This document shows, piece after piece, positions 2,444-36,883 of a DNA stretch of 64,000 bases. The DNA lies in NCBI RefSeq assembly GCF_009914755.1, contig NC_060944.1. One strand, 5' to 3'. Origin of the DNA: the human T2T-CHM13v2.0 reference genome, Homo sapiens. Within the stretch, counting starts at the first letter, position 1. Every line of letters begins with the position of its first letter. The notes below the pieces were generated by a model. It was not told the DNA's origin, did no database searches, and saw nothing but the letters and a program-made list of their open reading frames with translations. The position numbers and the translations under genes were made by a program.

Positions 2444-4014
2444 AGCAGAGATCTTATTTCCCGTATTCCCGTGTTGCACAGCACCTCCCAAGCCAAAGCA
2501 AACCAAAGCAAAGGAGCCCTTGATGAGGAGGGGCCTTCCCCCAACCTGGTCTCCCACAGGTCCTACATACGTACCCACCCCAGACACACAGAGCTGCTTC
2601 CTGCTCTCACACCAGACTGAGCTGTGCCCAGACATTTCCCCTAGCACTAACCAACTCTTTCAAAAATACATTTTTCTCTAAAAAGAACAAGTTTAAACAA
2701 AGTTGACTCATTTTAAGAACTGTTTAGAAGATAACCTTGTGTTTATTAATTATGTATTTGCAGAAATTGGAGGCAGAAGGTTACCAACATTGCCTGGTGT
2801 CCAGCCAGGAGGTAGAGCGTGGTGGCATCCAGAACCTTCCTCCAACTCCTGCCTGGCGTGGTTTTTATTCATCTTTGTATTCCCAAGAAACTTCTCAGTG
2901 TCTCAGGAGTGTTAGGCACTCAGTACGTGTTTGGTAGTTACATGAATGAATGCATAATGACTAAGTGAGTTAATGGATGAAGCTAATTGTCTCTCCCTTT
3001 TGCTTTTCCAGAGCTTTCCAAGGTGAAAGTGTTGGACACTCTTTCTTCATCTCAGATTTAATCAACTAAGAATGCTGCAAATTGAACACCAGTCCACAAA
3101 ACTCAGGAATACATGAAAAGCATTGTGCCTTATTTTTAACTAACTCAAATTCTATGTCAGTCTCCCTTTTATGCTGGATGTTGGCGCTAAATCTCAGTGG
3201 GTTCCTCATTCTGCCAGACCTGTGTCCAGTTTGGGGGCTTCACATAGAGCCACCCCATCACAGGAGAGGGAAGGGTCTTGCTCTTGGTTGCCATCACTCC
3301 ACCCTCTTGTCTTCCGAGCTTTGATGTTCACTTTCCTTTTCACCACTCGGAAGCTTCCTGCCATGATACATTGAGACCTCAATGTTAATGCCAATTGGGG
3401 TTTGGGGTTCTCATAAACTCAGAAGTCCAGGAAAATCGCCTGCTGCCTCCCACAACACTCTGAGGGCATTCTGGAATCCTACCACTTACCTGGAGCCTGC
3501 TGGCCTCAACTGTTTTGAAGTCTGTGTCTGGGCCATGCAGGTAAATGGGAGGATGTTCTGTGGCCATAAAAATACCCGAAGTCCCACCTAAAGTTGATGC
3601 AGGGTCTTCTGCATTTCATTGCAAAATTGTTCTATCATTTCTATAGTTTTCAGCCTACAGTCAGGGGCCAGGACTTTGCACCCTTGGTAAACCTCAATCT
3701 CTTCTCCTTCCTGGCTTCTACTCCTTTCTCCCTCAATCCCAAATCAAGGCCCTTGATTGTCTGGAGGTAGGAAAGCCTGGTTCTGGCTCATGATATAGTC
3801 TACATCATAGCCTTTGTCATCTCATGGATTCACTCAACAACCGTGTGTGGATGGGGCCACCCAATATGTGCCAGGAGTTGAGGACACGCAGGGTTATGAT
3901 GATGAAATAGATAAGGGGCCCACACTCACGGACCCTGCAGGACAGTGGAGCTGTGGACCCAGCATGCGAGTAAAGACCCAGTGAGCTCACCAGACAGATC
4001 ATTTAAATCAGGTG
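2444..4014. promoter_or_regulatory. Probable STAR5 anti-repressor (chromatin-opening) element
   Basis: Ends (AGCAGAGATCTTATTTCCCG...CAGACAGATCATTTAAATCAGGTG) and 1571-bp length match my recollection of the STAR5 clone. It is bounded by GATC sites at 2450 and 3997 with no internal GATC seen, as expected for a Sau3AI clone. Recall only; not verified by search. Confidence 0.55.
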
Positions 4015-4164: not shown

Positions 4165-4296
4165 AGGGAGCCCGTCGGATGGGACCTACGGGGCTTGAGG
4201 GAGCCCATCGGATGGGACCTACGGGGCTTGAGGGAGCCCATCGGATGGGACCTACGGGGCTTGAGGGAGCCCATAGGATGGGACCTACGGGGCTTG
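4165..4296. repeat. Minisatellite, 4 x 33 bp (AGGGAGCCCATCGGATGGGACCTACGGGGCTTG)
   Basis: Copies at 4165, 4198, 4231 and 4264; single substitutions in copies 1 and 4. Confidence 0.97.
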
Positions 4297-10619: not shown

Positions 10620-11255
10620 CACACACAGACACACAAACACACAGAACACACACACGGAAACAACATACAAACATGTAGAATACACATAGGCATAGCATAC
10701 AAACATACATATACACAGACACAACATACAAACCTACAGAGCATGCTCAGAAACAAGACACAGAGACCCAAATACAAACACAGACACGCAAACACACAGA
10801 ACACACACACAACATACAAACAAGTAGAACACATAGGCACAGCATACAAACATACAGATACACAGACACAACATAGAAACACACAGAGCATGCACAGAAA
10901 CAACACACAGAGACCCAAATACAAACACAGACACACAAACACACAGAACACACACACAAACAGCATACAAACATGTAGAAGGTGCAAAGACACAACATAC
11001 ACACAGAACATGCACAGAAACAACACACAGAGATACAAATACAAACACAGACACACAAACACACAGAACACACAGAAACAACATGCAAACACGTAGAATA
11101 CACATAGGCACAGCATACAAACATACAGATACACACACAACATACAAACACACAGAGCATGCACAGAAACAATACACAGAAACACAACACACAATACACA
11201 TAGCGTGCACAGATGATGCAACACACACACACACGGATACAACATAGAAACACAC
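10620..11255. repeat. CA-rich degenerate tandem repeat with a ~150-bp higher-order unit
   Basis: GTAGAA anchor at ~10675, 10824, 10975 and 11093 (spacings 149, 151, 118). Confidence 0.9.
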
Positions 11256-12280: not shown

Positions 12281-14154
12281 GCCGTGAAATGCTTCAGTGA
12301 CTTCTGGACTGGTACAAAGGAAGGTACACTGAATATTCGGAGAGAGCAATCGTTGCATAAAAAGCTGGGCAGCTATTTTTATTGCCAAAACACCTGGATG
12401 AAAAGGGGAAAAAAGAGACATGGGGACTGCCATCTGGACACACTACTGATGTTTATCATGACCTCCATATTCTGTGCAGATGTGTCTGGCTAATGGATGT
12501 CGTGGAGACACAGCTCTCAAAAAGAAAGACAGGGGAGCCTCTACCTCCTCATCTGGATCCACAAAACAGCCCCAGTGTGATGAGTGCACCAATGCTGGCC
12601 ACCCTATGGGCACTGTCAGGAGCAACTGTGGGGCTACCCTGAGATGTCACTTACAACATTTAAGGTGGCTCTTAGCTTTCTAAGTTGAAAATGAATTAAA
12701 CTTTCTCAGTTTTCTAGACATTTTATTACAAGAAGAGTTTTGGAAAAATCATGTGTGGGGGTTGAAATTTGGTTTGAAAGAAATTAAAAGTGTATGTATA
12801 GGAGTTTAACGAGAAATCAATTATTCTAACCAAGAAACTTTGAGTCCTGACATGTCTCAGCATCGCCAATTGTTATGTGATATTTTTACAGACATGGAAT
12901 CTAAAGGCTGGAAGGAGTTTGAACATCAAGCTATTCATCTACAAAGATCAAACTGATTTCTTCTGACTTTTCACTAAGGTGTCGCTGAAATAAGATTTAT
13001 CAGGCTATCAGTTTTGTTATTTCTGAAAGGCATTGCAAAACATCCTTCGAGGATCTGAATTAATTTTGCAATAATGAGATCATATCAGACTATATATCTG
13101 ATATTTTAGATAACACTGGCCAGTGCTTTTGGTTATGTTGTCATTTTTGGCTAGATAGTAACATGTATTAGCAAGGCCAAAATGTGAATACATTTCACAA
13201 AAACACACATTCTTAGCCCTGCTCCTCTAACTTGGAATAATTTTCATCTCAGTGAGATATTGGCTAGGACTTTGATTCCAAAACAAGTAAAATTGAAGCC
13301 TATTTCTCTTTTCCCCTCTGTTCTTTATTTTTTTTCTTTGCTGGAAAATCTGTTTACATCTTTTTTTTCTTTTTTGAAACACTTTTCCCAAGAGATCTCA
13401 ATTACTACTAAGAAATTTTAACTCAGTTTCAGAGCTGAAGAAACTGTCAACACAAAAAAAGATTTTAATGATCACCTGGTTGCATTTAACATTCACAAAA
13501 AAAAAGTCCCTTGTTTGGGAAACTCACAATAATTGAAAATATACAGTTTTTAAATTATGCATGTGCTTCTGACACTGGTGCTGTAAGGATAAAAAGCATC
13601 CACTGAAGCACATTTTTTTACTACACCGAACTGGAAACATCGTAATTCTAGGCAATCACAGAACAGTTGTGTAGTTCACACGCACAAGCAGCTGTGCTCA
13701 TGCTCAGCCCTTGGAGCTGTTCCCCCACCACGGGGAGGAGCTCAGGAACATTGAGTGCGACCTCAAGATGAAGGACGGGACTTTGGCTGCATTCTGTGGA
13801 GAGCCACGCTGGGGGAGGTCACATCCTCCTCCTTATCCACCAAACATCCTTCCAGCAAGACCAGGAAAAGTCAGGAGACCACTCAAAAAAGGATGAAAAA
13901 CCATCTCAAACAATGTCAGCAAGACAGGACCACTGTGAAATTTTCAAAAACGACTTGTGATCCCAACTCCTGGCTGAAACCCCCGCCCTGGTCACGGCTC
14001 TGCGCTCATCCTCCATGAGTCTGTGGCTGTCATCTATAAAGTAGGCACAGCAGTCAATTCGCCGGCCTGTAATGATGCCTGAGGTTAGGTACACTGAGAT
14101 ATTTGTAAAGCATCCCCAAATAGTCATATTCAAGTTATTATAACTATTAATAAT

Positions 14155-14317: not shown

Positions 14318-14930
14318 GTGGGCAGGGATGATCTGCCAGCTCACCTTCCCAACCAGCTGCTGGGTGCTGTGAGCAGGCAACCTTCAGTCATCACCCTCTT
14401 CCAGGGCTGCCTCACAAGCAGAGAGCTTCCTCACTCACACACCTTCTGGGGCAGCCCAACTAAAGAGGAATGGATACAGAGGCATAAAGGCATTGCCTTC
14501 TCAGCCCCATGCCCTGTAATAGGCTGCTTCAGCTCCAGAGCTCCCGTGCGGTCAGCTGGGACTGCTGGTCAGGCCACCGCAGTATGATGACGAAGACCCT
14601 CCTCAACCTCCTCCTCCTCTTCCCTCTTCCACCTCCTCCTCCTCCCTCCTCCTTCCTCCTCCCCTTCTTCTTTTCTCCCTTCCTCATTCCCCCTCCTTTT
14701 CTCCCTTCCTCCTCTCCCTTCCTCCTCCCCTTCCTTTCCCCCTCCTCCTCCTCCTTTCTCCCCTTCCTACTCCTTTCTTCTTTCCTTCCACCACCCTCTT
14801 CCCTCCTCCTCTACCCCTTCCTCTTCCCCCTCCTCCTCTTCATCCCCCTCTCCCTCCTCCTCTGTCCTCTTCTCCCCCACCTCCCTCTTCTTACCTCCAC
14901 CCCCTCTTTAGGTATAGATCCCAAGGGATC
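14318..14930 (+). mobile_element. ERVL solo LTR, LTR16A-like, with an internal CT-rich expansion
   Basis: CCAGCTGCTGGGTGCTG...GGGGCAGCCCA...GGCATAAAGGC...CAGCTCCAGAGCTCCCGTGCGGTCAGCTG, resuming after the tract as AGGTATAGATCCCAAGG. Confidence 0.7.
14598..14908. repeat. Polypyrimidine (CCT/CTT)-rich low-complexity tract
   Basis: ~310 bp of almost exclusively C/T on the + strand. Confidence 0.95.
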
Positions 14931-16669
14931 TATATATATTATATATATATGTTATATATATTTTGATATTATGTCATTATTACAAAATTAATTCAGATCC
15001 TTGGAGGATGTTTTGAAATGCCTTCCAGAAATAACAAAACTGACAGACTGACAAATCTTATTTCAGTGGCAGGCACCTTAGTGAAAAGTCAGAAGAAATC
15101 AGTTGGATCTTTGTGGTTGAATAGTTCAACCCTGATAGTCATCCTGCTCCATGCCAAACCCCTCTCTGTATCCTCTCCTCCGGAATGCAGCTGGTCACAG
15201 TGTTTAGGAAACTTGACAAAGCTCACAGAGCGAGTGAGTGATGGCCCCGAGATCCACACCCACATCTCCCTGACCTTCATATTTTTTCTTCCTCCCTTCT
15301 CCTCCTTTCCCTCCCTAAAACTTTTGGAAAAATCATAGCTCATCTTCACATCTGTCATACTTGTGACAACTGTTCAGGCTTTCTCCAAGTCTAAAATTAT
15401 AGAATTCTTTGAAAGAAAGTATTCACGCAATCAAACTTCACCAAATTAGGAGACCGTCAGTGTTAATTAGCAAAAATTCCAGATTATAAAATGCCTCTAG
15501 ATGTATGTTCTTTTTTTTTTTTTTTTTGAGCAAATATGTCAAGCTTGTATAGCAACTAAAGGAAAGAACTAAAAATAGAAGTCTTTTTTGTTCTGCAATC
15601 TGATGACCACAGTAACCTTAAAAACAATTTGTTCTTCTACAGAACTCAACATATATTTTCTACAGTCACCCCTTATTCACAATTCATCTGCTGAACAATC
15701 TTTAACAAGGAAAAAGGAACCTCCCTCCTGACCCACGTCTGAATGTTCACAAATTATCATGTTGCCAGAATCAGAATTAAGTGATTCTCCTTCATTTGCC
15801 ATTTTTCCCTTATTTTCAGGTTCTTCTTTCCTCCACATTAAAAAAAACCCACTTTTTGTGATATGTCGATATGTCTACCCATCACCTCGTCTTTTCAAAG
15901 CCCTGGAGATCCCCAGTCACTCTGGGAAAAGAAGAAGCCCCTTATTAATCTGAGCTATTTTAGTGACAACAAGCCTGAATGTTTTAAGATAGACACCATC
16001 AGATCCAACATAATGCTGTCAGTTTTTCACGTTCAAACACTTCATCTTCAGAATATCATCTGCATGCCTTAGGGAAAAGCCCATATACTCCTGGAGGTAT
16101 AAACCCTACCCTCTGGGAGGTGCTTTACCCAGGAAGAAGCCTGAATTCTCCAGTCAGCTTTCTGACCTCCTCAGCCTTCTCTCACAGCACAGCCTTGCAC
16201 ACAGTTCCAGCTTCGGCCACGCTCTGCTAATTGATCTCTTTTCTGTATTTGTTTTTTGATGAGATGAGTAGAAATGGCAATTCACTGTAACAGTAGTAAG
16301 TTTTTTAAATCAATAAGGAATCCCGCTGTGTGCTAATTTGGAATAAATAACAAAGCAAATGGGACATGATCTCGGCTCCCAGAGAACCTGCAGTGAGGCA
16401 GAGGAAAACGGACCAAGGCCTGCCCTTGCTGGGACTTGTCTGAGCATCTTCTGAGTGTCTCAGCAGTAGCATTCACTGGTTCTGTGCAGTGGGTGCCCTT
16501 TGATGCCCACTGTATGGGGTAAGGAGTGAATTACACCTGCATTGCAAATGACTCCAATACAAAACCCATAGTAGATAACTCTGTGAATTATTAGTGAGTG
16601 AACAAATGAGGGAATGAATACGGGAAACAGTTTTTCACAATGGCAAGAGCATAAGTTTGAAATGGACCA

Positions 16670-17290
16670 GCCCACACCTGACTAGGTTGCTGTGAACTTG
16701 AGCGGCATGATTCATTCTGAGCCTCAGTTTCCCTTCATTCATGCAGCAGGAACTTTGTCCCTCAGAGTTGTTATAGGAAACCTATATGATGATGTACAAA
16801 TGTTTATTGAGTGCTGGCTGTGATCCAGGGTCTGAAGTAGGAACTGGGAGCACAGAAGTCCCTGTCTTCATAGGGTTTAATTTTCCCATTCAGTGGAACA
16901 AAGCAGATAATAAATGAGCCAAGTTCAGTGGGACATAGTAGATGCTCAAGAAATGAGCCACATTGGAGGCCAACTCAGGAGTTATGGTGGAAAGCTTTTT
17001 GTGACTTAGGGCATGAAGTTCAAGTTCAAATTGAACTTCAAAACTGGGCAGCATGAATATCAGTGGCAAGAGCTTGCTGGGTGGAAGGAGCATGGTGAAA
17101 GGCAGAAGGTAGCTGGAACATTTAGGGTGCTGTCCAGATGTAAGGGGTGATGGAAAATAAAGTCAGGGAGTTGTCACTGGTCAGCTGTGGAGGCCTGATC
17201 CCCTGGGGCGTAATTTCATCCACTACTGGAGGCACTGAGGAGCCTAAAGGGGTTCACCGAGTAGGGACATTACAGAAGCCACTTTAAGGA
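16670..17290. mobile_element. MIR (+, ~16670-16790) followed by L2 (-, ~16795-17290)
   Basis: CTGAGCCTCAGTTTCCC MIR core; CAAATGTTTATTGAGTGC L2 tail and purine-rich body. Confidence 0.6.
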
Positions 17291-17369
17291 GATGACGCAA
17301 GAACCCGCCCTCAGCCTGGCTTGAAGGTAGGGCAGACTGCAGACCACATTCTACATAAGAACGCCTTTG

Positions 17370-17800
17370 AATTAGATCTCTTTGTGTTGCAAGTGACGGA
17401 AAACACAGCTTACCCCGGCTTATGGAAAGACATCAAGTATTGGCTGATGCTATCGACAGCATCCAGGTGTTCCAACGATGCCAGTCGGAATCCATCTTTC
17501 CTCATCTTTCAGCCTCGTTTCCCTCAGCATGACTTCACTTTCAGATATCGTCACAGGACAGATGGCAGCAGCTCCACGATGTCATCCCCAGAGCTCAGCA
17601 AGCCCCAGGAGAGAGTGGCTTAAACCATGGCTCCAACTGGAACCTCCAGTGAGGCCCGTGTGGCCCAACTCAGCTAAGCCCATGGCCAAGAGGACACCGT
17701 GGTCCAGTGGGTAAGAGCTTGAGTCAGGCATCCTCCTTCTGAGCTGGGTGTGGAGGAAACTTCATCTGCTTCATAGACTGAGAATATGGAATGGTGCAAC
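17370..17800 (-). mobile_element. MaLR solo LTR, MLT1J/K-like; its end forms the outer part of the palindrome left arm
   Basis: GTTGCAAGTGACGGAAAACACAGCT...GATGGCAGCAGCTCC...GAGCTGGGTGTGGAGG...CATAGACTGAGAAT. Confidence 0.6.
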
Positions 17801-17845
17801 AGAGTACAGAAGGGGCATTACTACAGCAGGAAAGGGCATTACTGG

Positions 17846-18337
17846 TGTGTCCGGAGTTTATTCCATCTGGTGGGTTCGTGGTCTCACTGACTTCAAGAAT
17901 GGAGCCGCAGACCTTCGCAGTGACTTACAGCTCTTAAAGACAGGATGGACCCAGAGAGTGAGCGATAGCAAGGTTTATTGTGAAGAGCGACAGAACAAAG
18001 CTTCCACAGCGTGGAAGGGGACGGACTGGGTGGCTGCTGCTGGCTGGGGTGGCCAGCTTTTATTCCTTTATTTGTCCCCTCCCATGTCCTGTTTCTGTCC
18101 TATCAGAATGCCCTTTTCTCAATCCTCCCCATGATTGGTTAGTTTTAGAATCCTGCTGATCGGTCCATTTTACCGAGCACTGATTTGTCCATTTTACAAA
18201 CCTCTTGCTAGCTACAGAGCACTGATTGGTGCGTTTTTACAAAGTGCTGATTGGTGCATTTTAAAATCTCCTTGTAAGACAGAAAAGTTCTCCAAGTCCC
18301 CACTCAACCCAGGAAGTCCAGCTGGCTTCACCTCTCA
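17846..18337 (-). mobile_element. ERV9-family solo LTR, LTR12F-like (492 bp)
   Basis: TGTGTCCGGAGTT...GGTGGGTTCGTGGTCTCACTGACTTCAAGAATG...CAGGAAGTCCAGCTGGCTTCACCTCTCA; TG...CA ends; perfect 4-bp TSD CTGG (17842-17845, 18338-18341); repeated GATTGG (CCAAT boxes). Confidence 0.92.
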
Positions 18338-18900
18338 CTGGGAGTCTGGAAACAGTGCTGTTAGGATGTTACTCACTGAGAGTACAGAAGGGGCATTACT
18401 GAAGTAGGAAAGGGCATTACTGGGAGTCTGGAAACAGTACTGCTGGTGTTACTCACAGAGTACAGAAGGGGCATTACTGAAGCAGGAAAGGGTGTCACTG
18501 GGAGTCTAAAAACAGTGCTGTTAGGATGTTACTGAGAGTATAGAAGGGGTGTTACTGAAGCAGGAAAGGGTGTTATTGGGAGTCTGGAAACAGTGGTGTT
18601 AGGATGTTACTCACTGAGAGTACAGAATGGGGCATTACTGAAGCAGGAAACGGCGTTACTGGGAGTCTGGAAACAGTGCTGTTAGGATGTTACTCACTGA
18701 GAGTGTGTAAGGTGTTATTGAGAGCATGAAATCATGAAATGGTGACTGCAGAAGGGGTTTCACTGCAAGTCTAGAGACGGCATTCCTGAGAGTATGTAAA
18801 GGTGCTTCTGAGAGTAAAGAAGGGGTGTTGCTGAAGGTCTGAAAGTGTTACTGAGAGTACAGGAGGGACATTGTTGAAAGCATGGAGGGTGCTACTGAGC
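18338..18900. repeat. Hierarchical minisatellite: ~80-bp units built from ~21-23-bp subunits
   Basis: Units start (C/T)TGGGAGTCT at 18338, 18420, 18498, 18576 and 18659; more degenerate TTACTGAGAGTACAGAAGGGG-like subunits continue to 18900. Confidence 0.92.
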
Positions 18901-19528
18901 ATACCCCTTCTGCAGTCGCCTTTCCATGATTTCATACTCTCAATAATACCTTACTCACTCTCAGTGAGTGACATCCTAGCACCACTGTTTCCAGACTCCC
19001 AGTAAAGCCCTTTCCTGCTGCAGCAATGCCCCCTCTGTACTCTCAGAGAGTAACATCCTAGCAGCACTGTTTCTAGACTCCCAGTAATGCCCTTTCCTGC
19101 TTCAGTAGCGCCCCTTCTGTACTCTCTGTTGCACCATTCCGTATTCTCAGTCTGTGGATCAGATGAAGTTTCCTCCACACCCAGCTCAGAAGGTGGACAC
19201 CTGACTCAGTCCCTGCAGATACTAAATGTATGTTTTTGGGGAAAGTGACAGTAGTACTTAATTCTATCAGACAGATCCTCCTTCCATACATTCTCCCATT
19301 GATGATCTTCCCAACAGCCTACCGCCATCTGCATTTTAGAGGAAACTGACCTGTCCGACATCATGTCTCCTTTAGCAGGTGGAGCTGGGACTCAAACCTA
19401 GGTCTTTGCAGTGCAGGCCACACCCTTTCCCTGCCTCTAGGGGATAACAAATACAAGAAATTCTCCCCATGAAAGAACAAATTCATCCATTCCTGCATCT
19501 CCTCTATAACATATATGGAATAAGTGGA

Positions 19529-20309
19529 TATATTAGCCTCCTATTGGCACTATAACAAACCACAAACTTAGTGGCTTCCAGCAACATGCATTTATTGTCT
19601 TACAGTTCTGGAGGTCAAAAGTTCAAGATGGGTCTCATTGAGCTCAAAATCAAGGTGTCATCAGGGTTGCATGTCTTCTGGAGGCTCCAGGGAAGAACTC
19701 TCCTTTTCTTTCCTTTTTCCGTTCCTTTCCTTCCTTCCCTTTCCTTTTTCTTTTCCTTTATTCCTTTCCCTTTTCCTTTTCTTCATTCTCCTCTCCCCTC
19801 CTCCTCCCCTCCCCTTCCTTCTCCTCTCCTCCCCTCCTGCCCTCCCCTTCCTTCTCGTTTCCTCTTCTCTCCTCCCCTCTCCTCTCCTCTCCTCTCCTCT
19901 CCTCCCCTCCTGCCCTCCCCTTCCTTCTCATCTCCTCTCCTCCCCTCTCCTCTCCTCTCCTCTCCTCTCCTCTCCTCTCCTCTCCTCTCCTCTCCTTTTC
20001 TATCCCCTTTTCCCAGATTCTGAAGGCTGCCTGCATTTGTCAGCCTGTGGCTCCTTCCATCTCAAAGCCAGGGATGGCCGGGGAAGCTTTGCCCACACTG
20101 CGTCACTCTGACACGACCCTCCTGCCTCCCTCTGTTAAGGATCCTTATGATTGCATCATGTTGCCTCCACCTGGACAGTCTAGGAGACTCCCCATCTTCA
20201 GATCCTTACCTTACTCACATCTACAAAGTCCCTTTTGCCGTGCAAGGAGAAATATTCAGAGGTTTTGAGAATAGAACATCTTTAGGGGACGGTTTTTCTG
20301 CCTGCCACA
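19529..20309 (-). mobile_element. MaLR solo LTR, MLT1D-like, with an internal CT-rich expansion
   Basis: TATTAGCCTCCTATTGGCACTATAACAAACCACAAACTTAGTGGC...GGAGGCTCCAGGGAAGAA [CT tract] CCAGATTCTGAAGGCTGCCTGCATT...TCTGCCTGCCACA. Confidence 0.85.
19697..20014. repeat. Polypyrimidine tract including (CTCTC)n
   Basis: ~320 bp of C/T-dominated sequence ending in near-perfect TCCTC pentamers. Confidence 0.95.
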
Positions 20310-21699
20310 GAGGGCAACTGGTCTACTGTGCACGTCAGGGAAATGAGCCTCCCCTTACTGTGTTAGAGTAAAACTCAGTCCCATCCCGGTTTGGAATTCT
20401 CATGTGGACAATGATGAGGATGCATCAGAAAAAGCCCGTGTTGGGAAGGAACCCACACCTTCCCTGCCACTGCTCAACAAATGTCAAGGATTACGGATTG
20501 AATCACGCTCATGGGCTCATGTCCAGCAACACGCAACCTCCCCTGTGTGATGCCACTGTTGTACTGTGGCCAGGCCCTCACTCTTTGGCCAGAGCAGGTG
20601 GGAAGCCAGCCTGCATGAGGGACCCAGCTTCCTCCAGCCTTCAGCATCTGATGCAACTTGAGCACATTGTAGGTCCCTCCTGACTCCTTGGAACTCCATT
20701 TCTTTATCAGTCCCGATGATAAAGAGCATTGCTAAAGGGTAAGAACATTCTGGTTTAATTTTTCATGAGGGCAAACATAAAAAATTCAAGCTAATACAAC
20801 CCAAAGTGAGCATTCAGGGCACCAACAAACCCTGACACCTGCCTCTCAAACAAACTCCACTGCTTCCTGAGTCCACCCCAAAATTGCTTCAGCCCTAATT
20901 GGAGCCAAGACTGCGCTGGGCAGCCAACCCAGGGCCGCTGGGGGCAAGGCATGCACATCCCCCGCACAGGGGCTCACGGGTCCAGGCGTTTGTTTATCAG
21001 AAGGTCACTCCTAATGTTTTTAATTTTAATTTTTTATGTTTTTCTTCATTAAAAATTTAAAAACTTTGTATTAGGGGTTGCATTAAAGAAATTCAGAAGA
21101 GTAAGGAACAGCCCCATCCTGCCTGGAGAGCTCAGCGCTGTCTGTGGCGTTTGTCTCTGGCTGAGGGTCTGGCTGGCTGGGGAGGTACAGTTCTATTTCA
21201 CCCTGCTCAATGCTGCCACGATGCTGGGTCAGCCCCTGCTATGGACAGGGAAGGGTGGGCTGCTCTGTGTGTTTCCTTCATCACCCATCTTGCAGAATGA
21301 ATTTTTTCTGATATTTCTTCTCAGAGAGCCCCTGTCCTTCTCTGCTGCCACAAGACCTAAGAGGCTGGGGCCAGCACAATCACACTCTGTAGACCAAAGG
21401 CTCACAGGACCCTCAGCTGGGAGGCAAGGGGCTTGTGTCAGTCTCAAGGCCAGTCAAGATGTTGGTTCTACATGAACAGGCTAAACTGATGACAAACCAG
21501 TAGGATTTGGGAAGGACGGTCTTTGAGATGCATTCATGGAGAAAAGGGCACAGCATACTAGTGTCTCAAAATCAGAACTCCCTGGGAAGGCAACCTAAGG
21601 CAGGCCTTAGAACAGCGGGGTCGGGCCACATCCGGCGACAGCCCCACAACAACATTCGCACTGCTTATCCTTCGGCGAAGGGATCTGTAGACTTTTGTC

Positions 21700-32185: not shown

Positions 32186-34529
32186 CCAGGTTCAAAAGGC
32201 AGCTCATTGCCTCCTGCTCTGCATAACAAATACCCAAAGGAGGAGAATGCCATTCACCCAGTTGACTTTAGGTGTCTTCACTGATCCGATCCCTTCTGGC
32301 CTCTGAGGGTTTATCCTTGTGGGTCAGGAAGGAAGAGGGGCCATTTAAAAAAAAATGGTTCCCAAAAATGTTGATTTCCCATCAACCAAGGGCACAGGAG
32401 GAAACCAGGATTTCCTATAGGACCTTTAAGGTCTCCTTGTCCTTAAGCTTCTTCTGTGTTTCCAGTCAACACGGCTAGGACTTCACTTCTCAGCAGGATC
32501 CTGGATTCCCCAGGCAATGACAAATTCACCCGTATCCAGAGCCAGGTCAAACTGCTGAAGACAAACCATTCCCAGGAAAAGGCACACATTCCTGGCCAAT
32601 TTATATGACACCTGGAGGAGAAACAGCCGTGGAGAAGGTAAAACTCCAGGCTGCACCTCTTCTTTCTGCTGTGGTTGATTGGAAAGGACAGCACTGTCTG
32701 ATGGGATTTACTGTTTTGTCTCTTCGGACCTGAAAGTTTGTTTTGTACTTGCAAATCTGGACCCGCTGTCACCTTGTAACACCCTCCCCCTGAAACCTTG
32801 AATGACAAGAAGATTAATGAAAACTGGCACCTGCTCACTCCCTTTTTGCATTGTCACCCACCCTGAGGGAGACGCAGATCTGATGATTTCGAAAAGGTTC
32901 TTGGGGATTTGGCCACAGTCTCCTTTCAGATTCGGCAGTCCTGGAGTGTGAGAGCTGTCAGAGTCGAGCCTGGAGTTTTAGAATTACTTAGCTCTAAGGG
33001 GCCGAAGCCTACAAACTGGTACGGTGCTTCTCCAACATTAGGAAATATGGTGTCCTTTTTTTTTGTGGGTGGGAGGAGGGGTATTAAAGAGGCAGTGATT
33101 TAAATAATTGAAATTTGGAGCTCAGTGTGACTCTGAGATGAGACGTCATTTACTTTAAAAAATCAGAAGTGTGTCTGTTCTCCCTGCAGAGAGCTGCCTG
33201 GATTCCTTTCCTGAACCGCCTGCTTGGCCACACCTCCTGACATCCTGTGCTGAGCTGAGTGAAAACTCCACGCTGGGAGAAAAAATGCATGAGGAAAGAG
33301 GTTGGTCTAAGGACGGGTTTCTACTTGTTTTGTAGTTTTCTGGGGGTAAAACAAATTACATTGCCACAGAAACTTCATTTTCTATATATTTTTCAAGAAG
33401 TTTTTCAGCAGATTTAGAAACTGTACAAAGATAAGAGCAGACACAGTAGCACAATTTAAACAGAGTTCAATAGAATCTGATTTATACTCATGATCCCAGA
33501 GACCAGAGCATGTATTAATAAACCATCTCTGGGGGAAACCCATGTTAACATTCCAAAACTTATCCCAGGTTGAATCTTCTGCTATATATCGTCGGACATT
33601 AAAATTCCCTGAAGAACTTCAGACTGCAATTTTGCTTTGCAGAAAGTCGGATAATATCACGTCCTCTGGCTCATTTCTCAGCGAGTAAAGATGCAGACAC
33701 CAGGAGACGTCTCTGGGCTAAAAAACAGTGAGGCATTCTGCTGGTATCCATGTCGGTGCTGGCTCCAGACATGGCAGGGTTTATCTTGCCTCTGGTGGCC
33801 TATGTCTGCAACCAGGATGGTCACCTGTTAAAATGCATGCAGTGTGCTCGGGTACGTCACTTCCAACAGCCTTCTTTCGTGAACGGCTATGATGCACAGG
33901 TAATTGGCAATATGTAATTGCTCAACACTGTCATTCTCAGGTAATGCATCTATTTTTTTAATAGCTCACTAAGACATGACATAAAGAACAATGTTCAGTT
34001 CCCACAAGCATGCAATTGGTCCCAACATGTGCATGAATGGGTGCATTGCCACATGATATGATGGAATTTTTTAATCTTGCTTGCTGTGCTTAAAGGAGCT
34101 GAGAAATGCTTCACAGCAAAGGCAAGAATGTGTTTGAAGAGGAGGAAGCATGCTTTATTTCCTGTCTAAAAAGTTCCTTCTCCATCTACTTCATCAAAGA
34201 GATGATTATTTTAATCCAGCTGATCAACAGCACAGGAAGAAACTGCCCCTGCTTCTTCACAGAGCATAAGTGTCACTTTGAGGAGGTCACTAGACCTTTG
34301 TAGGCCTCAGGCTTGACACTGGCCATGTGGAGATCGTAATCATCGAAGAACGTCAAGGAGGAAGGCTGTCCAGAGCTAGTCCTGACATTCCTTAAAGGTC
34401 ATCTTCCCAGCCCCGCCTCGCCTCAGAATGAGCGTGATCTCAAAATAAAAGGCACTCATTTAATTTGAATACATTTTTATCAAGCCAGTCTTATAATATT
34501 GTTCAAAACATTTCACATTGTGTTCTTTT

Positions 34530-35525: not shown

Positions 35526-36540
35526 GGAGGAGAGTAGTAGAAATATTTGGAGAATATTAGAATTCCAGTTGTGCTTTATTTCTGGAGAAAACTTCCAGCC
35601 TCTGGACCACATAGTATTTTGGTTGATTCTCACTAAAAGTTTAGGTGGTAGGCATTCTCATTAACCCCAGGTTACAGATGAAATGTGTAGAAGGGTCTGG
35701 TTAGGATGTGGTGGAGGCAGAAATGAGACCCAGATGGATACAGCTCCTCACTGCCCCCTGACGATTCCAGTGTCCTCTCTGTTGCATTCCCCTTCGTTCC
35801 TTCTGGTGCAGCGGCTGCGGAAGCAGACATAGCATGGTACTAGAAAGGATGGGAGAACAACTGCAGTGCTGGTGTGGCCGTGGGTGCTGAGCTCCCTGGG
35901 GTTGCAGATTGTGATACAGGTCGGTGACCGTTCCCTGGCCCTGGTTGACCAGGTTACTGTGACCTTAACATCCTCTGACACATCTTCTAACCTTTCACGT
36001 CAGATGTGCTCTTGGAGGACAGGCCGCCACCCTAAGAGCTTTCACCATCACAGACTGCCCGCCTGTCTGCCCATCGCCCTGCAGGCCTGGCCAGCTGCTG
36101 GCACAATGGCTGCCGCGGAAGCCCTCACTTGGATCTGAACGTTTCTCCCCCATGTTCAGTTAAATTAACTCAACTAGTAACAAGGGGTTGGCACTTTGTA
36201 TTCCAGGGAGGGTGGATTAGAGTCATTTCCATTAGCCCTAATTGAGGCCCTAAAGGGAAATTTAATTTATACCCCAAAACACTGCTACATTCTGAAGTCA
36301 GCGGCGTGATTTGAGAGAAACGTGAGATGTGGCGGTTTAAAAATAGGTCCATTTTTCCTGAGGGAAGAAGCTGGTTTTAGCCTTTCAATTTGAAAATATT
36401 CTAACACCATTGTATGGGGGAAATTGTTTCAACTTAAAAAAATACTAGTTCCAAAAGAACCCCTGAAGCCCCAGCATTTATACTTAGGCTCCAATTTGCC
36501 TAGGCCCTTCACTTGGATCCGAGGCACTGTGTCCACCATC

Positions 36541-36883
36541 TGGGCAGAGCCCTTTGCCTGGGTGTCCAGGCACAGCCCCTTGTCTGGGTGTCCGGGCAGA
36601 GCCCCTTGTCTGGGTGTCCGGGCAGAGCCCCTTGTCTGGGTGTCTGGGCAGAGCCCCTTGCGTGGGGGCCTGGGCAGAGCCCCTTGCCTGGGTGTCTGGG
36701 CAGAGTTGCTTGCCTGGGTGTCTGGGCAGAGCCCCTTTTGTGGGGGCCTGGGCAGAGCCCCTTGTCTGGGTGTCTGGGCAGAGCCCCTTGTCTGGGTGCC
36801 TGGGCAGAGCCCCTTGTCTGGTTGTCCTGGCAGAGCTCCTTGCCTGGGTGTCTGGGCAGAGCTCTTCGCCTGGATGGCTGGGC
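36541..36883. repeat. GC-rich minisatellite, 13 x 26 bp (TGGGCAGAGCCCCTTGTCTGGGTGTC)
   Basis: Exact 26-bp register with no indels (units at 36541, 36567, 36593 ... 36853). Confidence 0.97.

What the first reader, a model, noticed from the sequence alone, without database searches (positions are those of the whole stretch)
17720..19208. 1.5-kb interrupted palindrome made from an MLT1 end plus a minisatellite, with asymmetric later evolution
Seen: 18903-19208 is the reverse complement of 17720-17845 joined to 18338-18758, around a 144-bp spacer. The left arm has ~5 of the ~80-bp units plus a 492-bp LTR12F; the right arm has ~2 units and no LTR. The outer ~80 bp of both arms look MLT1-derived, so this is a local inverted duplication rather than a transposon TIR pair. 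Inferred order: MLT1 insertion, minisatellite birth, fold-back duplication, then LTR insertion and copy-number change in one arm. Any read-through transcript could form ~300 bp of imperfect dsRNA with the LTR looped out. The arms could also mediate recurrent micro-inversion of the spacer.
Basis: partly seen in the sequence, partly recalled or inferred. Interest (0 to 1): 0.75.

Follow-up and report, generated by a model that had tools for sequence, protein, structure and literature searches.

The report
Old inverted minisatellite copy with solo LTR
A short stretch of tandem repeats on human chromosome 20 was copied backwards next to itself tens of millions of years ago and then received one retrovirus end-piece (a solo LTR12-type LTR); the structure is real but looks like an ordinary, inert relic.

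Summary
18903-19208 is the reverse complement of 17720-17845 plus the end of 18338-18758 (115 of 126 and 202 of 227 bases identical), around a 144-bp spacer. A 492-bp LTR lies in the left arm only.

The arms, the minisatellite and the left flank occur nowhere else in the genome. This is therefore a local inverted duplication, not a transposon TIR pair.

The claim that the outer ~80 bp are MLT1-derived is not supported. The only MLT1-like element starts about 320 bp beyond the right arm.

The LTR (17846-18337, minus strand) has TG..CA ends and a 4-bp CTGG repeat on both sides. The right arm keeps the empty site, so the LTR came after the duplication. By length, motifs and kin it is an ERV9-group LTR of the short LTR12F kind, now solo.

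Arm divergence is K2P 0.098. The LTR's own branch is 0.055-0.084. Both events date to roughly 25-45 million years ago.

A transcript could fold into about 290 inter-arm pairs, but nothing is annotated there. The longest perfect match between arms is 34 bp, which makes recurrent inversion unlikely.

A second genome-unique inverted duplication of the same divergence lies 5 kb upstream.

The parts
17720..17845 (+). Left arm, outer part: about 57 bp of unique sequence, then degenerate ~20-bp sub-units and a half unit. It ends at the LTR insertion site.
   Evidence: Pairs with 19208-19081 at 115 of 126. Its only genomic kin are in this locus. Sub-unit matches at 17777-17816 (D3).
17842..17845 (.). 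Left copy of the 4-bp target-site duplication CTGG
   Evidence: Flanks printed. Sequence.
17846..18337 (-). Solo LTR of the ERV9 / LTR12 group, short LTR12F-like form, 492 bp. Read on the minus strand it has TG..CA ends, 3 CCAAT, one AATAAAA followed 20 nt later by GCCAGCAG, and a later AATAAA.
   Evidence: ends and motifs. (27 of 45 non-self match rows span the whole length at 79-85%). (28 of 29 saved kin full length; 12 of 28 with an exact 4-bp flank repeat). PMC11853044 sections 4-5. PMC5753468 table 4 passage.
18338..18341 (.). Right copy of the 4-bp target-site duplication CTGG
   Evidence: The right arm has the site with one CTGG only.
18338..18758 (+). Left arm, inner part: units L_U1 to L_U4 (82, 78, 78, 83 bp), partial L_U5 (47 bp), then 54 bp of non-unit sequence
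   Evidence: Pairs with the right arm.
18759..18902 (+). Spacer of 144 bp: degenerate ~21/43-bp sub-units in the same orientation as the left arm, so it continues the original array
   Evidence: D3 copies at 18785-18869 on the + strand; I13-I15.
18903..19208 (-). Right arm: inverted copy holding the inner 54 bp, a partial unit, one full unit, a half unit and the outer 85 bp. No LTR.

Best explanation
This is a structural relic with no demonstrated function. It was built in three steps.

(1) An old, hierarchically organised minisatellite grew here, with ~21-bp sub-units grouped into ~43-bp and then ~80-bp units.

(2) A stretch holding its proximal edge (about 57 bp of unique sequence), the units and 54 bp beyond them was copied in reverse orientation. 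The copy was laid down 144 bp downstream, at the far end of the array. The most likely cause is a replication template switch to the opposite strand and back (fold-back, or serial replication slippage / FoSTeS-type). This step is inferred, not shown.

(3) An ERV9-group retrovirus with short LTR12F-type LTRs then integrated inside one unit of the left arm, making a 4-bp CTGG duplication. It was later reduced to a solo LTR, by recombination between its two LTRs as is usual for solo LTRs (inferred).

Unit number differs between the arms: 4 full units on the left against 1 on the right. There was at least some later exchange among the left units.

The duplication and the integration are close in age, roughly 25-45 million years, at or before the common ancestor of Old World monkeys and apes. 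The long hairpin that a transcript could form is a by-product of the geometry.
For: Inverted repeat:
- Identities and E-values.
- Arms, array and left flank are unique to this locus: 5 of 5, 3 of 3 and 5 of 5 matches are local.

Left arm as the original:
- The spacer continues the array in the left arm's orientation, and the orientation flips only at 18902/18903.

LTR after the duplication:
- TG..CA ends, CTGG on both sides, and an empty site with one CTGG in the right arm.

Family of the LTR:
- 492 bp against 'about 500 bp (LTR12F)' (PMC11853044, section 5).
- CCAAT x3, and AATAAAA about 20 nt before a GCCAGCAG start-site-like motif, as that section describes for LTR12.
- 28 of 29 saved kin are full length, with a median matched length of 498 bp.
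- 12 of 28 full-length kin have an exact 4-bp flank repeat, where about 0.1 is expected by chance.
- The only LTR12-like element inside NAXD is collinear with this LTR at 74-86% and lies antisense to the gene. PMC12265125 names the element there an LTR12F solo LTR.

Age:
- Arms: K2P 0.098 (28 differences in 309 sites), or 0.081 without CpG-type sites.
- LTR against 29 kin: mean K2P 0.162, minimum 0.120. Its star-tree branch is 0.084, or 0.055 on non-CpG columns.
- LTR12F orthologues at HECW1 are reported as shared by human, chimpanzee and macaque (10.1101/723254, passages).
Against: - No primate outgroup could be examined, so the order and the dates rest on one genome.
- The clock is slightly at odds with the order. 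Half the arm divergence (0.049, or 0.040 without CpG sites) is below the LTR's star branch (0.084, or 0.055), although the duplication must be the older event. The gap closes if the nearest kin is used (0.120/2 = 0.060; non-CpG 0.076/2 = 0.038). Otherwise it needs source diversity among LTR copies, or gene conversion between the arms. Neither was shown.
- The kin were the 40 best of 3207 first-look candidates, a biased sample.
- No microhomology could be read at the junctions, so the template-switch mechanism is an inference from geometry.
- The subfamily letter F could not be checked against a Dfam/Repbase model, because no such tool was available here.
Confidence: 0.8

Rival explanations
1. 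The two arms are the terminal inverted repeats of a DNA transposon or MITE whose subterminal repeats are the ~80-bp units.
For: The geometry alone fits: long inverted ends with internal tandem units around a short centre.
Against: No other copy of the arms, units or spacer exists in the genome, even at E<=10. No direct repeat flanks 17720 and 19208. The spacer is a continuation of the left array, not a distinct core.
Confidence: 0.03
2. One reading: an MLT1 end lay here first, a minisatellite arose beside it, and the fold-back copied the MLT1 end with it.
For: An MLT1-like LTR does lie nearby at about 19530-20312. The name is recalled from its motifs and given by no tool.
Against: That element starts about 320 bp outside the right arm. 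The outer arm ends have no genomic kin, whereas 19508-19700 gave 1644 first-look candidates at 75-80%. Against 9 MLT1-like sequences the outer ends score like shuffles. Only one MLT1-like type was compared, so a very decayed fragment of another subfamily is not excluded.
Confidence: 0.07
3. The palindrome is a working hairpin-RNA locus, a source of edited dsRNA or small RNAs, kept for that role.
For: The + strand RNA of 17720-19208 is predicted to form 290 inter-arm pairs with a longest unbroken helix of 62.
Against: No gene, transcript, enhancer or other functional element is annotated between 14000 and 24000. No Rfam family matches 17000-20400 at E<=1. The arms have drifted apart at about the same rate as the neutral LTR, with no sign of compensating change examined. 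Any inverted repeat folds like this.
Confidence: 0.05
4. The structure is an assembly artefact of T2T-CHM13, such as a chimeric fold-back read.
For: None found.
Against: Artefactual fold-backs give near-perfect arms. Here the arms differ at 28 of 309 sites, by three repeat units, and by an old LTR with its own 4-bp duplication.
Confidence: 0.01

Closest known systems
LTR12F, the short LTR of the ERV9 / HERV9 group (class I, ERV1; HERVW9 group in the Repbase table of PMC5753468)
   Same: Length is about 500 bp. It has TG..CA ends and a 4-bp target duplication. CCAAT boxes lie in the 5' part, with AATAAAA then a GCCAGCAG motif and a later AATAAA. There are many full-length genomic kin of the same length (PMC11853044 section 5).
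   Different: The GCCA-N4-TGGC inverted repeat described for active LTR12C start sites is absent here, and is present in only 5 of 29 kin. This copy is solo and sits inside a minisatellite unit. PMC6995185 (passage) reports LTR12F flanking ERV-W-like interiors, so which interior this copy once had cannot be told from the LTR.
Small inverted duplications from replication template switching (serial replication slippage / FoSTeS, as reviewed in PMC2583991, passages read)
   Same: A segment is copied in reverse orientation close to its source, with a spacer and no mobile-element hallmarks. The locus is repeat-rich, which that review says may favour fork stalling.
   Different: This is an old fixed event. 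Junction microhomology can no longer be read, so the mechanism is inferred and not shown.
Inverted Alu pairs as sources of edited dsRNA (recalled; no paper read for this)
   Same: There are about 300-bp imperfect inverted arms within 1.5 kb, able to pair in a transcript.
   Different: The sequence is single-copy and in an unannotated intergenic stretch. No evidence of transcription or editing was available.

Membership tests
LTR12F / ERV9-group LTR | LTR termini TG...CA with a short target-site duplication | tested here: met
   Read on the minus strand, 17846-18337 has TG..CA ends. CTGG is found at 17842-17845 and 18338-18341. 12 of 28 full-length kin have exact 4-bp flank repeats.
LTR12F / ERV9-group LTR | Length of about 500 bp, the shortest of the LTR12 subfamilies (PMC11853044 section 5) | tested here: met
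   The LTR is 492 bp. Matched lengths of kin are 424-538, median 498.
LTR12F / ERV9-group LTR | CCAAT motifs in the U3 repeats; AATAAAA about 30 nt before the start-site motif (PMC11853044 section 5) | tested here: met
   There are 3 CCAAT, at 17-41% of the length. AATAAAA is at position 273 and GCCAGCAG at 293. CCAAT is in 29 of 29 kin and AATAAAA in 23 of 29. The GCCA-N4-TGGC form is absent here and present in 5 of 29 kin.
LTR12F / ERV9-group LTR | Similarity to a copy that print names LTR12F | tested here: inconclusive
   The only match inside NAXD (chr13:109,862,638-109,863,417 of the reference) is collinear with query positions 16-487, in pieces at 74-86%. PMC12265125 (passages) names an LTR12F solo LTR antisense to NAXD but gives no coordinates in the text read. 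Its Figure S9 was closed.
LTR12F / ERV9-group LTR | Best match to the curated LTR12F model (Dfam/Repbase) over the other LTR12 subfamilies | not testable with these tools
   No repeat library was available. The reference's masked-repeat table carries no family names.
MLT1 (MaLR) fragment in the outer arm ends | Detectable similarity to MLT1 copies | tested here: not met
   No genomic kin at E<=10. Against 9 MLT1-like sequences the best scores were 22.6 and 19.7 bits, reached by 4 of 50 and 22 of 50 shuffles. The positive control scored 128 bits, reached by 0 of 50.
DNA transposon / MITE with terminal inverted repeats | Several dispersed copies, and a target-site duplication outside the inverted ends | tested here: not met
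   All matches are local. The flanks at 17710-17719 and 19209-19218 share no repeat.
Local inverted duplication (interrupted palindrome) | Two adjacent reverse-complement arms that are single-copy elsewhere | tested here: met
Minisatellite | Head-to-tail units of about 10-100 bp | tested here: met
   Tandem Repeats Finder reports period 78 with 4.6 copies at 85% (18337-18704), and period 82 with 2.1 copies at 88% (18957-19126).

The most novel reading that the evidence does not exclude
The finding and a second genome-unique inverted duplication 5 kb upstream have the same arm divergence. The second one is 12931-13097 against 14954-15124, with about 1.86 kb between the aligned arms and K2P 0.103. 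The finding's arms have K2P 0.098. The two could be footprints of one multi-step template-switching event, or of a short episode of replication trouble, in an anthropoid ancestor. In that case the locus would be a dated natural example of a small complex rearrangement that became fixed, with the LTR integration as an independent time stamp.
Probability: 0.15. Interest if true: 0.4.

Novelty: new member of a known kind. Interest (0 to 1): 0.2.

Why it matters
It matters little in itself. The LTR belongs to a well-described family, and small inverted duplications are a known outcome of replication errors.

The locus has modest value as a worked example. An empty site preserved in the sister arm orders two old events without any outgroup. 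The arm divergence and the LTR divergence then give two clocks at one place that can be checked against each other.

If the neighbouring inverted duplication proves to be coeval in primate alignments, the pair would document a clustered template-switch episode. The dsRNA and inversion ideas remain untested and have no support from annotation.

Tried and rejected
Tried without result:
- An Rfam scan of 17000-20400 at E<=1 gave 0 matches.
- The reference's masked-repeat table has no family names. It masks only 18184-18343 inside the finding.
- PMC5753468 was searched for a statement on target-duplication length per ERV class. The one passage found dealt with DNA transposons. The '4 bp fits class I' remark therefore rests on my own count in kin and on recall.

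Considered and rejected:
- TIR pair of a transposon.
- MLT1 origin of the arm ends.
- Assembly artefact.
- A single staggered-break inversion explaining both inverted duplications. That model predicts interleaved arms (x, y', x', y), whereas the order here is A, A', B, B'.

Not attempted:
- Naming the arms or the MIR-like stretch at about 19330-19440 with a repeat library, since none was on hand.
- Any primate comparison, pangenome, reads or expression data, since none was on hand.
- A literature search for this particular locus. I make no claim that it is or is not in print.

Supplements were closed. Supplementary Figs 3-4 of 10.1101/723254 and Figure S9 of PMC12265125 may hold coordinates that would firm up or weaken the name anchors.

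What I saw of each paper:
- PMC11853044: passages plus sections 4 and 5 in full.
- PMC6995185, PMC5753468, PMC12265125, 10.1101/723254 and PMC2583991: passages found by term only.
- All other titles: search listing only.

The mutation rates used for the ages (about 1.1e-9 and 2.2e-9 per site per year), the names 'MLT1-like' and 'MIR-like', and the remark on inverted Alu pairs are recalled. They come from no call.
Full report
1. THE OBSERVATION

The sequence and the repeat finder show an interrupted palindrome. 17720-17804 pairs with 19124-19208 (85 nt, 92%). 18629-18758 pairs with 18903-19032 (130 nt, 90%), with 144 nt between these inner arms.

Gapped alignment of the pieces, each taken apart, gives two results:
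- 115 of 126 identical for 17720-17845 against 19208-19081, with 2 gap columns.
- 202 of 227 for 18531-18758 against 19129-18903, with 1 gap column.

Searched against the whole reference, the left outer arm finds only this locus. All 5 of its matches are local, and the right arm scores E 2.6e-40. The unit array plus spacer finds only this locus too: 3 of 3 matches, right arm at E 4.4e-76. The structure is real and far beyond chance.

2. ANATOMY

Tandem Repeats Finder reports period 78 with 4.6 copies at 85% over 18337-18704, and period 82 with 2.1 copies at 88% over 18957-19126.

Unit starts lie at 18337, 18419, 18497, 18575 and 18658 on the left. On the right, read backwards, they lie at 19085 and 19003. 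This gives:
- Left arm: a half unit, four full units (82, 78, 78, 83 bp), a 47-bp partial unit and 54 bp of non-unit sequence.
- Right arm: a half unit, one full unit, a 47-bp partial unit and the same 54 bp.

The units are themselves built of ~20-bp sub-units. These run on the + strand from 17777 through the spacer to 18869 (family D3). The 144-bp spacer therefore continues the left array. Orientation flips only at 18902/18903.

I read the left arm plus spacer as the original and 18903-19208 as the inverted copy. This is inference from the geometry.

3. THE VIRUS REMNANT

17846-18337 (492 bp) interrupts a unit of the left arm. Read on the minus strand it has these features:
- TG..CA ends, with CTGG on both sides (17842-17845 and 18338-18341).
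- 3 CCAAT motifs in its first 41%.
- One AATAAAA at position 273, followed 20 nt later by GCCAGCAG.
- A later AATAAA at position 358.
- 11 CpG, with observed/expected 0.38.

The right arm holds the same unit uninterrupted with a single CTGG. This empty site shows that the integration came after the duplication.

In the genome search, 40 of 3207 first-look candidates were scored. 27 of the 45 non-self match rows span the query from base 1-3 to 491, at 79-85% identity. The best partial row reaches 87%.

With a more permissive alignment, 28 of the 29 saved kin reach within 4 nt of both ends. 12 of those 28 have an exact 4-bp repeat in their flanks and 16 have at most one mismatch. About 0.1 exact matches would be expected by chance. 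These are therefore largely solo LTRs of one family with 4-bp target duplications.

The matched lengths of the kin are 424-538, median 498.

4. THE NAME

No repeat library was available, so the name comes from the LTR's features and from print.

The review PMC11853044 (sections 4 and 5 read) derives LTR12 repeats from ERV9 (class I). It gives about 500 bp for LTR12F against more than 1,300 bp for LTR12E. It describes conserved CCAAT motifs in the U3 repeats and an AATAAAA about 30 nt before a GCCAGCAGTGGC start-site motif. The Repbase overview PMC5753468 (table passage) lists LTR12F with HERV9 in the ERV1 group HERVW9. The copy here fits all of this.

The exact GCCA-N4-TGGC inverted repeat is missing here. 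It is present in only 5 of 29 kin.

As an anchor, PMC12265125 (passages) names an LTR12F solo LTR antisense to NAXD at 13q34. In the 27 kb that I fetched over NAXD, the only match to this LTR is one collinear element at chr13:109,862,638-109,863,417. It matches in pieces at 74-86% and lies in the antisense orientation. That is consistent but loose, and the paper's coordinates are in a closed supplement.

One kin, L012 at 86%, lies 12.4 kb upstream of SORD and points towards it. 10.1101/723254 (passages) describes an LTR12F oriented towards the SORD CpG island in macaque. I did not show that the two are orthologous.

PMC6995185 (passage) reports LTR12F flanking ERV-W-like interiors. The LTR alone therefore places this remnant in the ERV9/ERV-W neighbourhood of class I. 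It does not say which interior it once had. I did not look at inner genes.

5. AGE

From a script alignment of this LTR with the 29 kin I took pairwise K2P distances only:

| Measure | All sites | Without the 112 CpG-bearing columns (of 594) |
|---|---|---|
| This copy to the kin, mean | 0.162 | 0.105 |
| This copy to the kin, minimum | 0.120 | 0.076 |
| This copy to the kin, maximum | 0.197 | 0.140 |
| Kin to each other, mean | 0.157 | 0.101 |
| Star-tree branch of this copy | 0.084 | 0.055 |
| Mean branch of the kin | 0.079 | 0.050 |

This copy is of typical age for its family.

The arms differ at 28 of 309 aligned sites (19 transitions, 9 transversions), giving K2P 0.098. Without CpG-type sites the value is 0.081.

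With recalled rates of 1.1e-9 to 2.2e-9 per site per year:
- The arms give about 45 to 22 million years.
- The LTR's non-CpG branch gives about 50 to 25 million years.

Print gives about 30 million years for the entry of ERV9/LTR12 (PMC11853044 section 4). It also reports LTR12F orthologues at HECW1 in human, chimpanzee and macaque (10.1101/723254, passages).

My estimate for both events is roughly 25-45 million years, at or before the catarrhine ancestor.

One result runs against a simple reading. The duplication must be the older event, yet half the arm distance (0.049, or 0.040 non-CpG) is below the LTR's star branch (0.084, or 0.055). Using the nearest kin instead (0.060, or 0.038) removes the gap. 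So diversity among source elements probably inflates the star branch. Gene conversion between the arms would have the same effect and was not tested.

6. UNIT NUMBERS

The left-only units L_U2 and L_U3 each carry their own 4-bp deletion. They differ from the other units at 10-14 of 80-83 positions. The matched units of the two arms (L_U1 against R_U1) differ at 8 of 82. This leans towards these units predating the duplication, so that the right arm lost them or never received them. The counts are too small to decide.

Conversely, the first 47 bp of L_U1 and L_U5 are identical (0 of 47), while each differs from its right-arm partner at 3 of 47. This hints at a later exchange within the left arm.

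7. THE MLT1 CLAIM

The left flank plus outer arm (17200-17845) has no kin elsewhere, even at E<=10. All 5 matches are local and only 3 candidates were found.

On the right side, 38 of the 40 matches are elsewhere in the genome. All 38 cover only window 19508-19700, at 75-80% identity, from 1644 first-look candidates.

That repeat runs on to about 20312 and is split by a TC-rich simple repeat at 19701-20005. From its motifs I recall it as MLT1-like. It begins about 320 bp beyond the right arm.

Against this element and eight kin of it, the outer arm ends score no better than shuffles:
- Left outer end: 22.6 bits, reached by 4 of 50 shuffles.
- Right outer end: 19.7 bits, reached by 22 of 50 shuffles.
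- Positive control: 128 bits, reached by 0 of 50 shuffles.

Only one MLT1-like type was compared.

8. FUNCTION

The + strand RNA of 17720-19208 folds with a minimum free energy of -805.2 kcal/mol. It forms 290 inter-arm pairs, the longest unbroken helix has 62 pairs, and the LTR is looped out. This follows from any inverted repeat.

Between 14000 and 24000 the RefSeq table holds only three masked-repeat rows and no gene, transcript, enhancer or silencer. The nearest annotated exons end at 3401 and start at 32293 (table given with the finding). Rfam finds nothing at E<=1.

For inversion by homologous exchange, the longest perfect identity between the arms is 34 bp. The review PMC2583991 (passages) reports a 20-fold drop in recombination when uninterrupted homology fell from 232 to 134 bp. 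It describes serial replication slippage and FoSTeS as sources of small inverted duplications.

I therefore take the structure to be an inert by-product of a replication template switch. That mechanism is inferred, because the junctions show no readable microhomology.

9. NEIGHBOURHOOD

A self-comparison of 1-40000 shows one more non-Alu-sized inverted pair: 12931-13097 against 14954-15124. It has 151 of 167 identical, 4 gap columns, K2P 0.103 and a longest perfect run of 31. It too is unique in the genome, with 2 of 2 matches local.

Its divergence equals that of the finding. The arms are in the order A, A', B, B', so one staggered-break inversion cannot explain both. A common episode of template switching is possible but unproven.

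10. VERDICT

The structure is real and is a local inverted duplication. The LTR is a solo ERV9-group LTR of the LTR12F kind that integrated after the duplication, and both events are old. The MLT1 element of the story is not supported, and the functional ideas have no support here. Interest is low.

Noticed in passing
window 12931-13097 and 14954-15124: A second inverted duplication, unique in the genome, lies 5 kb upstream. 151 of 167 bases are identical, K2P is 0.103 and about 1.86 kb lie between the aligned arms. The interval holds a TC-rich low-complexity block (14601-14891, masked) and a MIR-like stretch (recalled). Its divergence is the same as that of the finding's arms.
   Followed up: partly
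window ~19530-20312 (+): An MLT1-like LTR (name recalled from its motifs) is split by a TC-rich simple repeat at 19701-20005. It gave 1644 first-look genomic candidates at 75-80%.
   Followed up: partly
window ~19330-19440 (+): A stretch resembling the MIR core (recalled, not tested) lies between the right arm and the MLT1-like element.
   Followed up: no
window 18337-18383 and 18658-18704: The first 47 bp of left units 1 and 5 are identical, although the arms differ by about 10%. This suggests a later exchange within the left array, after or around the LTR insertion that abuts unit 1.
   Followed up: partly
window 36539-36883: A 26-bp minisatellite of 13.3 copies at 86% lies inside the last annotated exon of lncRNA LOC105372700. 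Other arrays lie at 4165-4296 (33 bp x 4, 97%) and 10623-11200 (CA-rich, periods 60/120/147).
   Followed up: no
loci L014 (chrX:88,834,162-88,834,654) and L016 (chrY:3,637,899-3,638,391); L012 and L035 (chr15:42.82 and 42.68 Mb): Some LTR kin are copies of one another through later duplication. The X and Y copies have the same length and the same 6-base flanks on both sides. The smallest kin-to-kin distance in the set is 0.006, but which pair gives it was not printed. Such pairs slightly lower the mean kin-to-kin distance used for dating.
   Followed up: no
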